A program made the translations under genes and the position numbers. The notes beneath the pieces are model-generated. The model made no database searches. It was given only the letters and a program-made list of their open reading frames with translations, and was not told the origin of the DNA. Source: a virus (Duplodnaviria; Heunggongvirae; Uroviricota; Caudoviricetes). Taken from it: 64,000 nt of DNA. The DNA is taken from IMG/VR virus record IMGVR_UViG_3300042554_002914, one strand, 5' to 3'. Of the stretch, positions 39,943 to 63,810 are shown piece after piece (position 1 is the stretch's first letter; each line of letters begins with the position of its first letter).

Positions 39943-40548
39943 TTAGTACCCTAAATCGGGAGGAGCTTTGCCCCCAACTACAGCCGGTGAAAACTTAACT
40001 ACGGTCACCTCCCCCATGTCCCCCAAATCTTCGGCAAACTTGTTCAAGCTAGCGAGAACCCTATCAGGATCCCCTCCGGCCAAACCACACCCAATCATTG
40101 GGAATCCGATTCTGACAGGGGTTTTGATGGTTGGGTCTGATTTTGAATCCATTACATACACTTTGACAAAAAGCCGATTGAGAAACGTCTCAAAGGCTTC
40201 GTACTCAAATATGTCCTTGCCACGCCCGTATGTAAATTGGGTGTAGGCGTTTAGAATTTTGAATCCATGACCGCTAGATCCAACAACGTCAACTTCGGAA
40301 AAGGTCCCTAGTTTACTCCGGGTGCCATACTCAGTTTGCTTATCGGCGACAGCCACCTCTGGCCATTTCTTTACAATTTGACCGGCGATGCCGCTTGCCA
40401 TCGTATGGAAGCAATTGGCACCATGACAAATAATGTCGAAGTCACCATTGTCTGCCATTGTGAGCAGGTTGTTGTCAATTGTGGTTAGCATCGGGTTAGG
40501 TCCAATTTGGGTGGGGAATTTGTAAGATGGCGATACCCTACCACTCAA
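39943..40548 (-). CDS. macro domain protein (ADP-ribose / ADP-ribose-1''-phosphate processing family)
   Basis: DIICHGANCFHTMASGIAGQI and IGCGLAGGDP are macro-domain motifs. Confidence 0.7.
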   Translation of the reverse strand: MSGRVSPSYKFPTQIGPNPMLTTIDNNLLTMADNGDFDIICHGANCFHTMASGIAGQIVKKWPEVAVADKQTEYGTRSKLGTFSEVDVVGSSGHGFKILNAYTQFTYGRGKDIFEYEAFETFLNRLFVKVYVMDSKSDPTIKTPVRIGFPMIGCGLAGGDPDRVLASLNKFAEDLGDMGEVTVVKFSPAVVGGKAPPDLGY

Positions 40549-41399
40549 AGTGGCGGGTGGTTAAGTTTATTGAGCACATATTCAAGTCTGGTGGGCTTTA
40601 GATCAAGGGGGATGTTATCTAAATTACCTGATGCGCCCGTACAATCGCCTTCTACTCCTGTGCAGTCCCCAATTAAGTTAGAGCAGTCCCCAATTAAGTT
40701 AATTACTCTCCCGTATAAACCAGTGCAATTGCCGGTTAGGCCAGAAATAAATCCCGTCAGATTGGAACAATCACCAACTAGATCCTGGTTAACGGTCCCT
40801 AAAGCTCCCGACAGGTCACCTGTTAATTTAGGGTTAATCACTCCTTTAACGCCACTTAAGTCTCCGGTTAAGTCTTTATTAAGATTACCGGATAAGCGTT
40901 CCCATGGGTCAATACCTAAACCCATATTGCCGTACAAATTCGAAACATCCCCACTCAATGATGGCAAGATTCTTCCCCTAAGATCGGAGTTTATCTCACC
41001 TGTCAAATAACTCACATCACCAATAAGCCCGGGGTTGATCGTTCCGCTGAGGTTAGAACAATCTCCGAAGAGGAAAGGGCTTAGTTCGCCACAGGAGAGG
41101 CTTGGGTTTAACCCCTTTTGTACAGCCCCCTCACCGTCCAACCAAAAAAATTTTTCGCTAGATTTAAAGAAGTCATGTATCTTGCTTCTCATTTCTAAGA
41201 TTTCTGGCTCCAGGGGTATTTGAGGGGTTGCTTCAAATAAGGGTACATGCTTGCCAGCCGCTTCATCCCATGCGTGAGGAGTGCGGATATTGTCACCTAG
41301 CTTAAACCTGACTTCATTTAAGTCATAGTAAAAGTCCAGCAGAACATTCAGATTGTCTTGTAACTGAGCCATATGTTGGGAGTTTTGTGGGTTTGTCAA
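40545..41399 (-). CDS. repeat protein (LxGDxSNLxG-type repeats, LRR/beta-helix-like)
   Basis: 284-aa ORF. The C-terminal two thirds are built from roughly 9-10-aa repeats (LSGDVSNLYG, LTGDLSGAL, and similar). Confidence 0.45.
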   Translation of the reverse strand: MTNPQNSQHMAQLQDNLNVLLDFYYDLNEVRFKLGDNIRTPHAWDEAAGKHVPLFEATPQIPLEPEILEMRSKIHDFFKSSEKFFWLDGEGAVQKGLNPSLSCGELSPFLFGDCSNLSGTINPGLIGDVSYLTGEINSDLRGRILPSLSGDVSNLYGNMGLGIDPWERLSGNLNKDLTGDLSGVKGVINPKLTGDLSGALGTVNQDLVGDCSNLTGFISGLTGNCTGLYGRVINLIGDCSNLIGDCTGVEGDCTGASGNLDNIPLDLKPTRLEYVLNKLNHPPL

Positions 41400-41470
41400 T
41401 CAAGGGGGCAAGGAATCGAACCCTCCCCATCAGGCAACAATACCCTGCGATGCCAACCAGCGGGATGCCC
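41400..41470 (-). ncRNA. degenerate tRNA-like element
   Basis: A GAGGG-UUCGAUU-CCUUG T-arm-like hairpin is followed by CCCCC. No clean cloverleaf forms. The element overlaps ORF 41430..41672. Confidence 0.2.
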
Positions 41471-41838
41471 CAAGGCCGGAAGGGGAATCAGGTTCGGATG
41501 CTACGAGTTGACGAAGGATGCCAATCTGGGCCTTACGGTTGCCTTCATAAATTACAAATACTGAGGCAAAACCGGAAACATCGTTAGTTCCGAAAAAGGC
41601 GCCGGGGGCTTGCATGGTGGTACGAATTGGGATGATGTTGTTGGTGGCGGTAGTAGCGGTGGTGGGGGTCATTGTGGGTTGGTAGTTTCTAAAGGGTTAA
41701 GGAGTTCAAACTTCAATTTAATTGAAAAGTGCAGATTGCGAGTGATTCTTTCCTCTTGGGATCGAAGTTGCTGCTCAATGATTGTTTTGACTTTGGGGTC
41801 CATTTTGATGGGGGGGTGTTTTTAAACACATGGTGTAA

Positions 41839-42351
41839 TCACTTAGGCAGTTCAAACGGTGATACCGTAATGCGATTTTCTTCATAAACCACGGCAGGTT
41901 CACCCCCTGAAGGATTTACACAAAGAACCCAGGTTGCATCTGCACTTGCAGGAGAGTAAAGAGCATTAGGGTCGGCCTGAGGAATTACAAATTGACCAGG
42001 AATATTTGGGGGATTCTCAATCTTTTGGGGATTTGTATATTGGGTGGCATAAGGAATGCCATAACCAAAGGACTTACAAAGCAACTTGCGTTCGCCGGTT
42101 CCAGGAACCATGACATAAGTGTAAGTTACGAACTTTGCTCTATCCCGAAGTTCAAGAATGCGCTTAAGATTTTTGCGTTCAGTAAACTGAGTAATGGCTG
42201 GCATACCCGTCTGAGCAGTTGCTTCCTTGTTCATCTGTTCTTGCTGAATGCGTTGAATATCATCGGCGGTTTCTCGCAGTCCTAGGCAGCCAGTCAAAGA
42301 CAAACCACAGAGCATGACAGCGGGAATGAGGAATGCGTTAGAGAATTTCAT
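41839..42351 (-). CDS. lipoprotein
   Basis: A signal peptide with a lipobox is present (MKFSNAFLIPAVMLCGLSLTGC). Confidence 0.5.
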   Translation of the reverse strand: MKFSNAFLIPAVMLCGLSLTGCLGLRETADDIQRIQQEQMNKEATAQTGMPAITQFTERKNLKRILELRDRAKFVTYTYVMVPGTGERKLLCKSFGYGIPYATQYTNPQKIENPPNIPGQFVIPQADPNALYSPASADATWVLCVNPSGGEPAVVYEENRITVSPFELPK

Positions 42352-61928: not shown

Positions 61929-62171
61929 TCAGTCAGAAACCGGTAGCAATCTATTGACGGCCACTCCCAAGGTTCTTAAGGTTTCTCAAAGCCATAATAG
62001 CCAATGGCAAGACCATAACCCCCACAAGCAAGAAATTGACTACGGGGTCTGGCAAGTTGACGGGGTCGTTAATTGTTGTGGGTTGGATTTGGGTGGTTCG
62101 TTGGGTGGCCATAAGGGGTGGCTTGGGGGTTGTTTGGTGATTGCTGGAGGGGGAAGTTGCCCAGTTATGGA

Positions 62172-62212
62172 CCCACTCTAGCCTGATGCCTTGGCAATGT
62201 CAACCCCCCTCC
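62172..62212 (-). promoter_or_regulatory. type-I promoter repeat upstream of the HNH/hypothetical block
   Basis: Plus strand reads ctctagcctgatgccttggcaatgtcaacccccc. Confidence 0.45.
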
Positions 62213-62304
62213 CCGAATCGCGCCAGAATTTGCGCCAAAATGGCGGGATAGGTCCCCATCTAATCAAGGTAGCCTGATTCCCAACCCGCGTCAACCCTTT
62301 GGCC

Positions 62305-63810
62305 TTAACCAAGTAGGCGACTGCGAACGTTCGCTAAACCGTTGGTATCTTCACCGTAAATCACACTATTTAGAAATACGGTTTGGAGCGCACCTCGCTG
62401 CTCTTGCTCACGAGTTTGCTGTTGATAGAGGACAAAGTCATCTCCTTCTTTTTCAACACGGAGTAAACCCTTGGCCGACTTTTTGGTGCCACGGTCGGTA
62501 ACCGGATCCTTCATGGTCTCAATCGGGACACCTTTGATCTGGCCCCAAGTTGTTTTGTAAGCGATTCCGAAAGTATCACGAGTGTGGTATTGATAGGTGT
62601 AAGAACCGATCCCAAACACGATGTTTTCGGATGCCCAACCTTGTTGCCTCATGTGCTCCAAAATAGCTCTGGCACGGGGTAGAGTGATGGAATCCCCATA
62701 AATAAGTCCAATCCGAGGGTTCAAGACTTTGAATCCCTTTTCGTTCACTGTCCCACCGAAGACTTCCCACAGGAGTTGAAGGGAGCCCTTGAACTCACGG
62801 CTACCTGGCTCAGTGCCGTTGTCACCGCAAATGATTTTCTCGGGGGATCCCGAGTCGGGTCTGACGGTTACCTTGGCTAGTCCCAATTCATTAGGCTGAC
62901 GGTTTAGGATTTCATCTTTAAGGGTAGGGAGAATTACCGTCAGTGTATCCCAGTAATTCCAAGTGTCACTGACTACGCTAACAATCCCTTTTGGGTACAC
63001 CTTCGTGATGATCCGTCGAATAGTCTCCAATTCATTTTCCCGTCCCCCTAGGCAGGTAACACTATGCTCCGTAGCGGGGACACTACCCCCAATGAACTCG
63101 GAACCGCAATCATAATAATCGTCAAGGTAATCAATCGAAAGGATAGTGTCAGTACCCTTAAAACTATACAAGTGCCCAATCTGGTGAGCTGCCGCATCAT
63201 GAATGCCCCCTACTCCGCGAGCAGAAAAGTCATGCCCCTGAAAGTCAACGAACTGAGGACTACTACCTGTGAGTTCAGCGTAGTGGTCTAAAAGACGGCG
63301 AAATTCATAGGCAATGGTGGCTACGTTGACTGCTTTCCAAATTTCCGAAGATTTAGCAGTTTCAATATAGTTAGTGGCCCATGGAGCCATCCACTTGAAG
63401 TCTTTATGAGTGTTTTGTGCCGTCAGAAAGGGGACGCCAATGTTCACACGACTACCTTCTGGGAGAGCTTTAATGTGAAGGGGCAGGTAACCAAGGTCGT
63501 GTAATTCCGCAAAGTGATCAGTTCCCACTACGCCTTCCCCCAGCGAAGAATCCATTCGCCGCTTATACTTATCAAGGACTTTAGCCTTAGGCTGGTGAAA
63601 GAAGGTTTCATTCCAAAGATCCCTCAACATCCATTTCATGGTCCCCTGGATATTAGCCACAACTACCTTATGGTCGAATCCCTCAGGCATATTTGCTAGG
63701 CGATCAGACCTAGCTGTCATGTTGGCATAGATAATCTCAGTGCCTTCTGGGTTTTGAAAGGGGTGTCCAGTCTTGTAAAAGTCTGTTGCGTGGGGGGCGA
63801 AAAGTTTCAT
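62305..63810 (-). CDS. nadV: nicotinamide phosphoribosyltransferase (NAMPT/NadV)
   Basis: TDFYKTGH matches NAMPT TDSYKVTH. The 501-aa length fits the NAPRTase/NAMPT family. Confidence 0.8.
   Translation of the reverse strand: MKLFAPHATDFYKTGHPFQNPEGTEIIYANMTARSDRLANMPEGFDHKVVVANIQGTMKWMLRDLWNETFFHQPKAKVLDKYKRRMDSSLGEGVVGTDHFAELHDLGYLPLHIKALPEGSRVNIGVPFLTAQNTHKDFKWMAPWATNYIETAKSSEIWKAVNVATIAYEFRRLLDHYAELTGSSPQFVDFQGHDFSARGVGGIHDAAAHQIGHLYSFKGTDTILSIDYLDDYYDCGSEFIGGSVPATEHSVTCLGGRENELETIRRIITKVYPKGIVSVVSDTWNYWDTLTVILPTLKDEILNRQPNELGLAKVTVRPDSGSPEKIICGDNGTEPGSREFKGSLQLLWEVFGGTVNEKGFKVLNPRIGLIYGDSITLPRARAILEHMRQQGWASENIVFGIGSYTYQYHTRDTFGIAYKTTWGQIKGVPIETMKDPVTDRGTKKSAKGLLRVEKEGDDFVLYQQQTREQEQRGALQTVFLNSVIYGEDTNGLANVRSRLLG

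What the first reader, a model, noticed from the sequence alone, without database searches (positions are those of the whole stretch)
39943..63810. NAD+/ADP-ribose-linked gene set: macro domain, NADAR domain and NAMPT
A macro-domain protein (39943..40548) and a NADAR/YbiA-like protein (42981..43469) bracket the tRNA-like and ligase locus. A NAMPT gene lies at 62305..63810. Macro and NADAR domains both remove ADP-ribose modifications from proteins or nucleic acids. Macro domains also dephosphorylate ADP-ribose-1''-phosphate, the by-product of 2'-phosphotransferase-dependent tRNA splicing. NAMPT regenerates NAD+. Together these could counter host NAD+-depleting or ADP-ribosylating defences, or serve an NAD-dependent step in RNA ligation or 2'-phosphate removal linked to the neighbouring RNA-repair genes. 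No NMN adenylyltransferase partner is visible near NAMPT in this window.
Basis: partly seen in the sequence, partly recalled or inferred. Interest (0 to 1): 0.6.

Follow-up and report, generated by a model that had tools for sequence, protein, structure and literature searches.

The report
Phage NAD-rebuilding and ADP-ribose-removing genes
An uncultivated freshwater giant phage carries already-described counter-defence enzymes: a two-enzyme pathway that rebuilds NAD+ from its breakdown products, an ADP-ribose phosphatase and an enzyme that strips ADP-ribose from DNA. The find is a correct but ordinary new example.

Summary
All three genes are real, though two start codons need correcting. The macro gene is 39943-40491(-) and the NADAR gene is 42981-43433(-).

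The "NAMPT" (62305-63810) is better read as Namat. Its best solved relative is the phage SPbetaL1 Namat (436 bits, against 177 for human NAMPT). It carries the Namat-specific motif as GSYTYQYHTRD. A divergent Prs-like gene (Adps) lies 65 bp upstream, running off the window end; only its last 40 codons, 63876-63998, are in the window. Together these form NARP1, which needs no NMN adenylyltransferase. That explains the "missing" partner.

The macro protein has a Poa1p/TARG1-class fold (pLDDT 91) and is 31% identical to the Vibrio phage Gary Adpp, an ADPR-1''-phosphate phosphatase that feeds NARP1. Here it lies 22 kb from NARP1.

The NADAR protein keeps the catalytic Glu and Lys. It is 47% identical to the NADAR of phage Bas32, reported as the anti-DarT1 factor AdfN.

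In other viral contigs the same four families sit side by side (Adps-Namat-macro-NADAR). Half of the macro relatives lie next to NAD+-reconstitution genes.

The link to RNA repair is conserved synteny within this lineage only. No Tpt1/KptA was found.

Verdict: a new member of known systems, of modest interest.

The parts
63876..63998 (-). Last 40 codons plus stop of a 306-aa Prs-like gene, the candidate Adps (ADP-ribose pyrophosphorylating enzyme of NARP1). The gene continues beyond window position 64000.
   Evidence: The full gene was read from the source contig (L002 9015-9935, 100% identical to the window). phrog_619 hit at 9e-65. It fails every NCBIfam Prs equivalog cut-off (51-107 bits against 296-536). 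It is closer to the Prs-like genes that precede NAMPT-like genes in phages ICP1 and KB57 (100-134 bits) than to E. coli Prs (79 bits).
62305..63810 (-). Namat-type nicotinamide ADP-ribose transferase, 501 aa, annotated by general models as NAMPT/NAPRTase. It starts 65 bp downstream of the Adps stop.
   Evidence: Best PDB hits are 9W5X/9W5W, the SPbetaL1 Namat, at 436 bits; human NAMPT scores 177 bits. It carries the Namat selectivity-clamp motif GSX-Phi-X-Phi-X-Phi-TRD as GSYTYQYHTRD. All 9 IMG/VR relatives have Adps directly upstream.
42981..43433 (-). NADAR-domain protein (about 150 aa), AdfN-like and in the YbiA branch. The ORF extends to a TTG at 43469, but the ATG at 43433 fits the homologues.
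   Evidence: Pfam NADAR 2e-25. YbiA structure 1e-17. 47% identity, E 3e-42, to Bas32 bas32_0066. The catalytic Glu and Lys are present in VEHAFQAAK.
39943..40491 (-). Macro-domain protein (182 aa) of the Poa1p/TARG1 class, in the same family as the phage ADPR-1''-phosphate phosphatase Adpp.
   Evidence: phrog_335 1e-44. Profile search of the PDB: Poa1p 1e-9. AlphaFold pLDDT 91, with Poa1p as top Foldseek hit. 31% identity, E 7e-18, hhalign 99.8% to Vibrio phage Gary Adpp.
44371..45468 (-). Context, not part of the set: ATP-dependent RNA ligase of the DraRnl (DRB0094, Rnl5) type. It is the syntenic upstream neighbour of NADAR in this lineage.
   Evidence: Pfam RNA_ligase plus the PHA02142 OB domain. 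NCBIfam TIGR02306 at 171 bits against a cut-off of 151. Synteny.
37997..39499 (-). Context, not part of the set: Ro60-like protein (DUF2828 + DUF7788). It is the syntenic downstream neighbour of the macro gene and is followed by three long tRNA-like RNAs at 36996-37710.
   Evidence: Pfam hits. phrog_850 'RNA-binding protein'. Rfam tRNA hits.
40545..42749 (-). Context: genes inserted between NADAR and macro. In the relatives L011 and L017 the two are directly adjacent. The inserts are a 133-aa unknown protein, a 170-aa lipoprotein (lipobox LSLTGC), an 80-aa ORF and a 284-aa repeat-rich protein. None shows any NAD+/ADP-ribose link.
   Evidence: No Pfam or NCBIfam hits. Translations. No fold match for the lipoprotein. 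Adjacency in relatives.

Best explanation
The region holds four separately placed genes, not three, that protect the phage from host immunity based on NAD+ and ADP-ribose.

Adps uses ATP to pyrophosphorylate free ADP-ribose. Namat joins the product to nicotinamide to give NAD+. This rebuilds NAD+ from the products of host NADases without any NMN adenylyltransferase.

(2) The Poa1p-like macro protein most likely removes the 1''-phosphate from ADPR-1''-phosphate. That compound is the product of RES-type NADases such as aRES. The reaction yields ADP-ribose that NARP1 can use. This would be a NARP1-AP pathway whose phosphatase is encoded 22 kb away rather than in the operon.

(3) The NADAR protein most likely hydrolyses ADP-ribose from guanine bases of phage DNA, and possibly RNA, as the phage AdfN proteins do against DarT1.

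What is shown: the homologies, motifs, predicted fold and gene contexts. What is inferred: every enzymatic activity and every defence target. The neighbouring RNA ligase and Ro60-like genes are read as fellow residents of the same early counter-defence region, not as biochemical partners.
For: NARP1:
- The Prs-like then NAPRTase-like order with a 65-bp gap on the same strand matches the published operon.
- The best solved relative is a crystallised Namat, 436 bits against 177 for human NAMPT.
- The Namat-only motif is present. True Nampt genes in other loci have GMGGALLQ..DRD at that site.
- Adps fails the Prs equivalog cut-offs.
- It shares VDDICDGG, KVRN and YVTHGIFSKG with the ICP1 and KB57 partners of NAMPT-like genes.
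- All 9 of 9 relatives keep the pair.

Macro:
- The fold and profile searches point to Poa1p, and Poa1p His23 is conserved.
- It is homologous to the biochemically verified Gary Adpp.
- Of the 80 nearest IMG/VR macro loci (40 clusters at 70% identity), 20 clusters have NAD+-reconstitution genes within 10 kb.
- In L022, whose Namat is the closest relative of the window's (804 bits), the macro gene lies 1.5 kb downstream of Adps-Namat.

NADAR:
- 47% identity to the Bas32 NADAR, which is reported to neutralise DarT1 and rescue phages.
- The catalytic Glu and Lys are conserved.

Grouping:
- Contiguous Adps-Namat-macro-NADAR clusters occur in three independent clusters: L112, L177/L181 and L179.
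- Published surveys report that Macro, NADAR and NadV co-occur in medium and jumbo phages.
Against: - No activity was measured.
- The macro gene is 22 kb and about 40 ORFs from NARP1, so it fails the published operational definition of NARP1-AP (within two genes).
- Its family (phrog_335) matches 2,715 phage records, against 1,482 with a Prs/Adps-like gene. Many members therefore work without NARP1.
- Foldseek scores for TARG1 and DarG macrodomains are almost as good as for Poa1p. A de-ADP-ribosylase role is therefore not excluded.
- The NADAR protein also passes the NCBIfam model for the riboflavin-intermediate N-glycosidase domain, narrowly (76.7 against 73.7).
- 53 of 60 NADAR clusters have none of the tested partners within 10 kb.
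- E. coli YbiA and T4 gp30.3 hydrolyse guanine-ADPr in vitro yet did not protect cells from DarT1.
- The host is unknown, as is whether it has aRES, DarTG1 or NADase defences.
- Placement of Adps in its clade rests on pairwise scores and motifs, not on a tree.
Confidence: 0.6

Rival explanations
1. RNA-repair by-product processing. A 2'-phosphotransferase (Tpt1/KptA) or a sirtuin removes 2'-phosphates from broken tRNAs using NAD+. The macro protein then dephosphorylates the ADPR-1''-phosphate by-product, as Poa1p does in yeast. NADAR processes related ADP-ribose derivatives, and the NAD+ pathway replaces the NAD+ consumed.
For: - The macro protein is Poa1p-like.
- The order Rnl5, NADAR, macro, Ro60-like is conserved in relatives whose proteins are only about 48% identical. 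NADAR and macro are directly adjacent in L011 and L017.
- 12 of 40 macro clusters have an RNA ligase or a Ro60-like gene within 10 kb.
- An Rnl1-like ligase lies about 6-7 kb downstream of Namat in the five relatives whose locus extends that far.
- The idea has been proposed in the literature.
Against: - No Tpt1/KptA, 2H phosphoesterase, sirtuin or Nudix Pfam hit among about 65 ORFs of the window. None is on record for the 10 kb beyond its end either.
- From established knowledge, DraRnl-type and Rnl1-type ligases are ATP-dependent. End-healing by a polynucleotide kinase plus a metallophosphatase (27104-28464) produces no ADP-ribose by-product.
- The synteny comes from a single lineage.
- Macro relatives outside that lineage sit next to NAD+-reconstitution genes more often than next to ligases.
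Confidence: 0.15
2. Macro and NADAR form a pair of nucleic-acid de-ADP-ribosylases. NADAR removes ADP-ribose from guanine (DarT1-type). The macro protein removes it from thymine (DarG2-like) or from RNA or DNA phosphate ends (TARG1-like). Both act independently of NAD+ resynthesis.
For: - Foldseek finds DarG macrodomains (TM 0.75-0.79 on the target) and TARG1 close behind Poa1p.
- NADAR and macro are adjacent in relatives.
- Macrodomains reverse phosphate-end RNA ADP-ribosylation, and NADARs reverse guanine ADP-ribosylation in RNA and DNA.
Against: - The only biochemically tested member of this phage macro family (Gary Adpp) is an ADPR-1''-phosphate phosphatase.
- The family is embedded in NARP1 or NARP2 gene clusters in half of its nearest clusters.
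- Conservation of the DarG catalytic residues was not examined.
Confidence: 0.15
3. The pair at the window end is an ordinary PRPP synthetase plus NAMPT. It makes NMN, which a host enzyme or a phage enzyme encoded elsewhere adenylylates to NAD+.
For: - General models name the two proteins NAPRTase/NAMPT and ribose-phosphate diphosphokinase.
- TIGR01251 is passed narrowly (116 against 113).
- Namat is reported to keep some nicotinamide-PRPP catalysis in vitro (section titles).
Against: - The Namat motif is present and the Nampt motif is absent.
- The score is much higher to a crystallised Namat than to any NAMPT.
- The Prs-like protein fails all Prs equivalog cut-offs.
- No NMNAT lies in the window or in the next 10 kb.
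- In published data 97% of Adps-clade genes sit next to Namat, while cellular prs genes rarely do.
Confidence: 0.07
4. The NADAR protein is a YbiA-type N-glycosidase acting on riboflavin-pathway intermediates, a metabolic housekeeping role unrelated to defence.
For: It passes NCBIfam TIGR02464 (76.7 against 73.7). Its best solved relative is E. coli YbiA.
Against: - No riboflavin-pathway gene was seen in the window.
- YbiA itself hydrolyses guanine-ADP-ribose in vitro.
- The closest phage relative tested is an anti-DarT1 factor.
- Contiguous clusters with Adps-Namat-macro exist elsewhere.
Confidence: 0.05

Closest known systems
NARP1 (Adps + Namat) of phages Bas63 and SPbetaL1 (Osterman et al., bioRxiv 10.1101/2024.02.11.579819; Namat structures 9W5X/9W5W, PMC12774641)
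   Same: - Same two families in the same order and on the same strand, with a short gap.
- The Namat selectivity-clamp helix motif is present.
- The residues aligned with the Namat active-site His and Arg (ATEHS, RPDSG) and the Adps active-site Lys (ATKVRN) are conserved.
- There is no NMNAT.
   Different: - About 45-50% identity or less to characterised members; the best phage-record hit is 59%.
- Motif position Phi3 is His rather than the usual Asn or Val.
- The variable clamp loop was not analysed.
- The host is an unknown freshwater organism and the genome is a jumbo one (at least 284 kb).
- Activity is untested.
NARP1-AP of Vibrio phage Gary: Adps, Adpp (macro) and Namat (Osterman et al., bioRxiv 10.64898/2026.01.28.702374)
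   Same: The macro protein belongs to the same family as Adpp (31% identity, hhalign 99.8%). It shares the H-x-x-N-C, GDxxKLG, N-x-Y-x-Q and IGxGLAGG motifs. Poa1p is the closest characterised cellular homologue.
   Different: The macro gene is 22 kb from Adps-Namat instead of inside the operon, and this spacing is kept in three related contigs. Here it is flanked by a Ro60-like gene and lies near NADAR.
AdfN(Bas32), the NADAR of Escherichia phage IrisVonRoten (Johannesman et al., PMC11825919)
   Same: 47% identity over the full length. The catalytic Glu and Lys and the GNTWGDTYWG block are the same. It is a stand-alone protein of about 150 aa.
   Different: The gene context differs: in T5-like phages it lies among nucleotide-metabolism genes. 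That bas32_0066 is the tested AdfN is inferred, because it is the NADAR gene found in Bas32.
Yeast Poa1p (ADP-ribose 1''-phosphate phosphatase; PDB 6LFQ)
   Same: It is the top structural match, and His23 is conserved.
   Different: About 20% identity. Poa1p Ser30 is Thr here and Phe152 is Ala. Poa1p works downstream of Tpt1 in tRNA splicing, and no Tpt1 is seen here.
NARP2 of Vibrio phage KVP40 (Nampt + NMNAT-Nudix)
   Same: Both have a NAPRTase-family enzyme and serve phage NAD+ restoration. Relatives of the window's macro protein are often embedded in such operons.
   Different: The window's enzyme lacks the Nampt GxGGxLLQ motif, and no NMNAT-Nudix gene is present.

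Membership tests
NARP1 (Adps + Namat) | A Prs-family gene immediately upstream of a NAPRTase-family gene on the same strand | tested here: met
   The gap is 65 bp. It is seen in the source contig and in 9 of 9 relatives.
NARP1 (Adps + Namat) | Namat selectivity-clamp helix motif GSX-Phi-X-Phi-X-Phi-TRD, with aromatic X residues | tested here: met
   The motif is GSYTYQYHTRD. True Nampt genes in other loci show GMGGALLQ..DRD at that site.
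NARP1 (Adps + Namat) | Transferase closer to characterised Namat than to Nampt | tested here: met
   436 bits to SPbetaL1 Namat against 177 bits to human NAMPT.
NARP1 (Adps + Namat) | Prs-like protein belongs to the Adps clade, separate from cellular Prs | tested here: inconclusive
   It fails all Prs equivalog cut-offs. It scores higher with the ICP1 and KB57 partners of NAMPT-like genes than with E. coli Prs, and it shares their motifs. No phylogenetic tree with verified Adps sequences was built.
NARP1 (Adps + Namat) | Adenine-stacking residue in the variable clamp loop (SCL) | not tested
   The loop is variable in length, and no structural model of the window's Namat was made.
NARP1 (Adps + Namat) | ADP-ribose is converted to ADPR-PP and then to NAD+; the pathway rescues phage from NADase defences | not testable with these tools
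   Needs biochemistry and infection assays.
NARP1-AP (Adpp macro phosphatase) | Macro fold with Poa1p as the closest characterised homologue | tested here: met
NARP1-AP (Adpp macro phosphatase) | Homology to the verified Adpp of Vibrio phage Gary | tested here: met
   31% identity, E 7e-18, hhalign probability 99.8%.
NARP1-AP (Adpp macro phosphatase) | Encoded within two genes of the Adps-Namat pair | tested here: not met
   It lies 22 kb and about 40 ORFs away. The spacing is similar in three related contigs. The macro gene is adjacent to Adps-Namat in L022, L063, L106, L112, L177 and L179.
NARP1-AP (Adpp macro phosphatase) | ADPR-1''-phosphate phosphatase activity | not testable with these tools
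   Needs an enzyme assay.
AdfN / NADAR ADP-ribosylglycohydrolase | NADAR domain above the curated cut-off | tested here: met
   90 bits against 35.
AdfN / NADAR ADP-ribosylglycohydrolase | Catalytic Glu and Lys seven residues apart (E36 and K43 in AdfN of T4) | tested here: met
   Present in VEHAFQAAK and invariant in alignment A3.
AdfN / NADAR ADP-ribosylglycohydrolase | Removes ADP-ribose from guanine in DNA and neutralises DarT1 | not testable with these tools
   Only homology is available (47% to the Bas32 NADAR).
NARP2 (Nampt + NMNAT-Nudix) | Nampt-type motif and an NMNAT-Nudix partner | tested here: not met
   The motif is absent. No CTP_transf_like or NUDIX hit was found in the window or is on record for the next 10 kb.
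Tpt1/KptA-dependent RNA repair | Presence of an RNA 2'-phosphotransferase that generates ADPR-1''-2''-cyclic phosphate | tested here: not met
   No PTS_2-RNA hit among about 65 ORFs scanned. The remaining 210 kb or so of the genome could not be read.
MacroD / YmdB-type macrodomain | Closest similarity to MacroD-type deacetylases | tested here: not met
   YmdB ranks 32nd-33rd by Foldseek, behind Poa1p, TARG1 and DarG, and is absent from the profile hits at E<=1.

The most novel reading that the evidence does not exclude
Macro and NADAR act together as 'feeder' enzymes. They convert several ADP-ribose derivatives made by host immunity into free ADP-ribose for the phage's own NAD+ resynthesis. 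Such derivatives include ADPR-1''-phosphate, base-linked ADP-ribose and perhaps signalling nucleotides. The activity would destroy toxins or signals and recycle them at the same time. This would also explain two observations made here. The same macro family sits between the NMNAT-Nudix and Nampt genes of NARP2-type operons in 18 of 40 clusters. Contiguous Adps-Namat-macro-NADAR clusters also exist. I found no experimental role for a macro protein in NARP2, or for NADAR in NAD+ reconstitution, in the papers read.
Probability: 0.2. Interest if true: 0.55.

Novelty: new member of a known kind. Interest (0 to 1): 0.3.

Why it matters
The result shows that a gene labelled 'NAMPT without NMNAT' in a phage should first be checked for an upstream Prs-like gene and for the Namat motif. 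With both present, the apparent gap in the pathway disappears.

It adds a freshwater jumbo-phage lineage to the phages that carry NARP1, an Adpp-family phosphatase and an AdfN-like NADAR together. This suggests that the hosts use NADase (possibly RES-type) and DarT1-like defences.

The practical lesson for annotation is that accessory enzymes of NAD+ reconstitution can be encoded far from the core operon. Counts based on 'within two genes' will therefore underestimate them.

Tried and rejected
- Megablast of 39900-45500 against GenBank phages found nothing. There is no close cultured relative.
- Single-sequence searches for the macro protein were weak: Pfam was below its cut-off and PDB E-values were 0.02 or worse. 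An alignment of homologues was needed.
- MacroD/YmdB assignment was rejected, although it is the name JGI gives to the homologues.
- A tRNA-like RNA between macro and NADAR was sought with Rfam at E<=1 and not found.
- Promoter and terminator scans of 36000-46000 gave no more sites than shuffled sequence, so operon boundaries could not be drawn.
- NARP3 (PnuC + NadR) was considered and dismissed: no such domains were found.
- A RyR-domain (RyDEP) accessory protein next to NARP1 was looked for among the small ORFs flanking Adps-Namat and not found.
- The genes between NADAR and macro were examined as possible ADP-ribose enzymes. The 170-aa protein is a lipoprotein with no fold match. The 284-aa protein is a repeat protein.
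- A guessed accession for Bas32 turned out to be Bas02. Bas32 was then found by megablast.
- The supplements of the AdfN paper are not held.
- The rest of the 284-kb genome could not be searched for NMNAT, Nudix or Tpt1. Only the window plus 10 kb is readable.

Full report
**Setting.** Almost all ORFs in the window are on the minus strand. The window is 100% identical to part of a 284,095-bp freshwater metagenome contig (JGI 3300043773, Ga0453110_0000004). Its content is that of a jumbo phage:
- CysRS and an AlaRS fragment;
- a CCA-adding enzyme;
- a sliding clamp;
- a kinase plus metallophosphatase pair;
- tRNAs;
- a Ro60-like protein followed by three long tRNA-like RNAs;
- two RNA ligases;
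- a glutamine riboswitch.

No GenBank phage is similar at the DNA level.

**Checking the observation.**
- The NADAR assignment is solid: Pfam 90 bits against a cut-off of 35, and E. coli YbiA at 1e-17.
- The NAMPT-family assignment is solid.
- The macro assignment fails Pfam's cut-off with the single sequence (18 bits against 22). Three other results confirm it:
  - PHROGs family 335 at 1e-44;
  - a profile of 48 homologues, which finds Poa1p at 1e-9 and TARG1 at 2e-7;
  - an AlphaFold model (pLDDT 91) whose best Foldseek matches are Poa1p, TARG1 and DarG macrodomains.
- Homologues place the real starts at ATG 40491 for macro and ATG 43433 for NADAR.
On the minus strand the order is ligase, NADAR, macro, Ro60-like gene, then tRNA-like RNAs.

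**The 'NAMPT' is a Namat with its partner at the window edge.** Looking up the protein in public assemblies showed a 306-aa Prs-like gene ending 65 bp upstream of it, on the same strand, in every contig. The window holds only its last 40 codons, at 63876-63998. This is the published layout of NARP1. In NARP1 a Prs-like enzyme (Adps) pyrophosphorylates ADP-ribose, and a NAMPT-like enzyme (Namat) joins the product to nicotinamide to give NAD+.

Four tests support membership:
- The best solved relatives are 9W5X/9W5W, the SPbetaL1 Namat, at 436 bits. Human NAMPT scores 177 bits.
- The Namat-specific clamp motif GSX-Phi-X-Phi-X-Phi-TRD is present as GSYTYQYHTRD. Bona fide Nampt genes in other viral loci have GMGGALLQ..DRD at that site.
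- The Prs-like protein reaches only 51-107 bits against the NCBIfam Prs equivalog models, whose cut-offs are 296-536 bits. It resembles the Prs-like partners of NAMPT-like genes in phages ICP1 and KB57 (100 and 134 bits) more than it resembles E. coli Prs (79 bits). It also shares their VDDICDGG, KVRN and YVTHGIFSKG motifs.
- All nine IMG/VR relatives of the transferase keep the pair.

NARP1 needs no NMN adenylyltransferase.

**The macro protein.** It is 31% identical (E 7e-18; hhalign 99.8%) to Adpp of Vibrio phage Gary. Adpp is a Poa1p-like macro protein that converts ADPR-1''-phosphate, the product of the RES-domain defence aRES, into ADP-ribose so that NARP1 can use it. Poa1p His23 is conserved. 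Ser30 is Thr. Phe152 is Ala, as in Adpp.

The published pathway (NARP1-AP) was defined by a macro gene within two genes of NARP1. Here the macro gene is 22 kb away, so that criterion is not met. Three related contigs keep both genes at about the same distance. Klebsiella phage KB57 also has NARP1 and a family member far apart.

I fetched the 80 closest macro loci from IMG/VR to see what the family associates with. After clustering at 70% identity there were 40 clusters:
- 18 have NMNAT-Nudix and true Nampt genes within 10 kb, usually with the macro gene between them (Pfam check);
- 2 have Adps-Namat next to the macro gene (L022 and L063), and the L022 Namat is the closest relative of the window's;
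- 12 have an RNA ligase or a Ro60-like gene nearby (some clusters fall in more than one class);
- 11 have none of these.

The strongest association of the family is therefore with NAD+ reconstitution.

**The NADAR protein.** Its nearest relatives in GenBank phages include T5-like phages. One of them is Escherichia phage IrisVonRoten, which carries bas32_ locus tags and is therefore Bas32. Its NADAR (bas32_0066) is 47% identical to the window protein over the full length. The NADAR of Bas32 (AdfN) is reported to neutralise the guanine-specific DNA ADP-ribosyltransferase DarT1. It also restores plating of three phages on DarTG1 hosts. The catalytic Glu and Lys, E36 and K43 in T4 AdfN, are present and invariant in my alignment.

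Caveats:
- The protein narrowly passes the model for the riboflavin-intermediate N-glycosidase domain.
- Some NADARs that are active in vitro do not protect cells.
- 53 of 60 NADAR clusters show none of the tested partners within 10 kb.

**Do the genes belong together?** In the window they are dispersed. Two kinds of evidence link them elsewhere.
- In relatives with about 48% identical proteins, NADAR and macro are directly adjacent, for example at L011 9518-9985 and 10001-10522. The genes that separate them in the window encode a lipoprotein, a repeat protein and small unknown proteins. These look like insertions.
- Three independent NADAR clusters (L112, L177/L181 and L179) carry a contiguous Adps-Namat-macro-NADAR block.

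Published surveys had already noted two things. Macro, NADAR and NadV co-occur in medium and jumbo phages, often in early regions beside RNA-repair genes. NADAR genes also lie next to NAD+-salvage genes.

**The RNA-repair alternative.** The order Rnl5, NADAR, macro, Ro60-like is conserved across the lineage. The chemistry is missing, however:
- No Tpt1/KptA, 2H phosphoesterase, sirtuin or Nudix domain was found among about 65 ORFs scanned.
- None is on record in the 10 kb beyond the window.
- From established knowledge, the repair enzymes present do not use NAD+. They are a DraRnl-type ligase, an Rnl1-like ligase, and a kinase plus a metallophosphatase.

I give this reading 0.15. Finding a Tpt1 gene elsewhere in the genome would raise it.

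**Verdict.** Its central puzzle is resolved by a known system, and the parts match recently described families (NARP1, Adpp, AdfN). Every enzymatic function is inferred from homology and context. I classify the finding as a new member of known kinds, with interest 0.3.

The least expected by-product is how often this macro family sits inside NARP2-type operons, and that four-gene Adps-Namat-macro-NADAR clusters exist. Both hint at a broader 'feeder' role for macro and NADAR in NAD+ reconstitution (probability about 0.2).

Noticed in passing
window 36996-37109, 37217-37346, 37593-37710 (minus strand), next to 37997-39499: Three Rfam tRNA matches of 114-130 nt cover the whole 71-position model, so each must hold a long insert. 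ARAGORN does not call them. They lie just downstream of a Ro60-like DUF2828/DUF7788 protein (phrog_850 'RNA-binding protein'). The arrangement resembles bacterial Ro (Rsr) with tRNA-like Y RNAs (from my own knowledge; not tested).
   Followed up: partly
IMG/VR loci L014, L023-L028, L033-L037, L040, L046 and others: Relatives of the window's macro protein are embedded in NARP2-type operons in the order NMNAT-Nudix, macro, Nampt (18 of 40 clusters). An AAA ATPase often follows, in 21 loci. In L014 a NADAR gene lies between the NMNAT-Nudix and macro genes. The NARP papers read here give no experimental role for a macro protein in NARP2.
   Followed up: partly
L112 5588-10426; L177 6283-10417; L179 3049-10441; L181 1-3206: These loci hold contiguous Adps-Namat-macro-NADAR clusters. 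Their Namat has a variant, longer clamp motif (G[AS]F[CS]F...TRD).
   Followed up: partly
window 54023-54100 (minus strand): A glutamine riboswitch (Rfam RF01739, 46 bits against a gathering score of 35) lies upstream of a 70-aa ORF (53784-53996). From my own knowledge this motif is typical of cyanobacteria, marine metagenomes and cyanophages. The best GenBank match of the macro protein is Synechococcus phage B23/B3. Both are hints to the host.
   Followed up: no
window 41839-42351 (minus strand): This 170-aa predicted lipoprotein (signal peptide plus lipobox LSLTGC) has at least 1,594 homologue clusters at 50% identity or more. It has no Pfam family, no PDB sequence hit and no fold match (pLDDT 75). 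It is a very widespread, conserved phage protein of unknown function.
   Followed up: yes
window 40545-41399 (minus strand): This 284-aa protein is made largely of short L-x-G-D-x-S-N-L-x-G-like repeats. It has no hit in Pfam, PHROGs or NCBIfam and was not found in any of the 80 macro loci.
   Followed up: partly
window 3492-4352, 13874-15328, 23777-24526, 27104-28464, 17484-18665: Translation- and RNA-related cargo: an AlaRS catalytic-domain fragment (286 aa), a full CysRS, a CCA-adding enzyme, and an AAA_33 polynucleotide-kinase-like protein next to a metallophosphatase. The last two form a split Pnkp-like end-healing pair. There is also a DNA polymerase III beta clamp.
   Followed up: no
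L103 and L104, 9932-12445: In two related contigs the Namat reading frame is 838 codons long. Only residues 1-332 of the window protein match in the first aligned segment (95% identity). This suggests an in-frame insertion, either an intein or a homing-endonuclease-like element.
   Followed up: no
window 60959-61552 (minus strand) and 60276-62200: An HNH endonuclease gene lies about 750 bp downstream of Namat. Its surroundings differ between otherwise identical-looking contigs only in the gene calls, not in the DNA.
   Followed up: partly
window 30543-30632 (minus strand): ARAGORN calls a 90-nt tRNA-Ile with anticodon TAT. Rfam's tRNA model does not report it at the gathering threshold.
   Followed up: no
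window 48193-48882 (minus strand): A pentapeptide-repeat protein (229 aa). A homologue also lies upstream of the syntenic region in L011.
   Followed up: no
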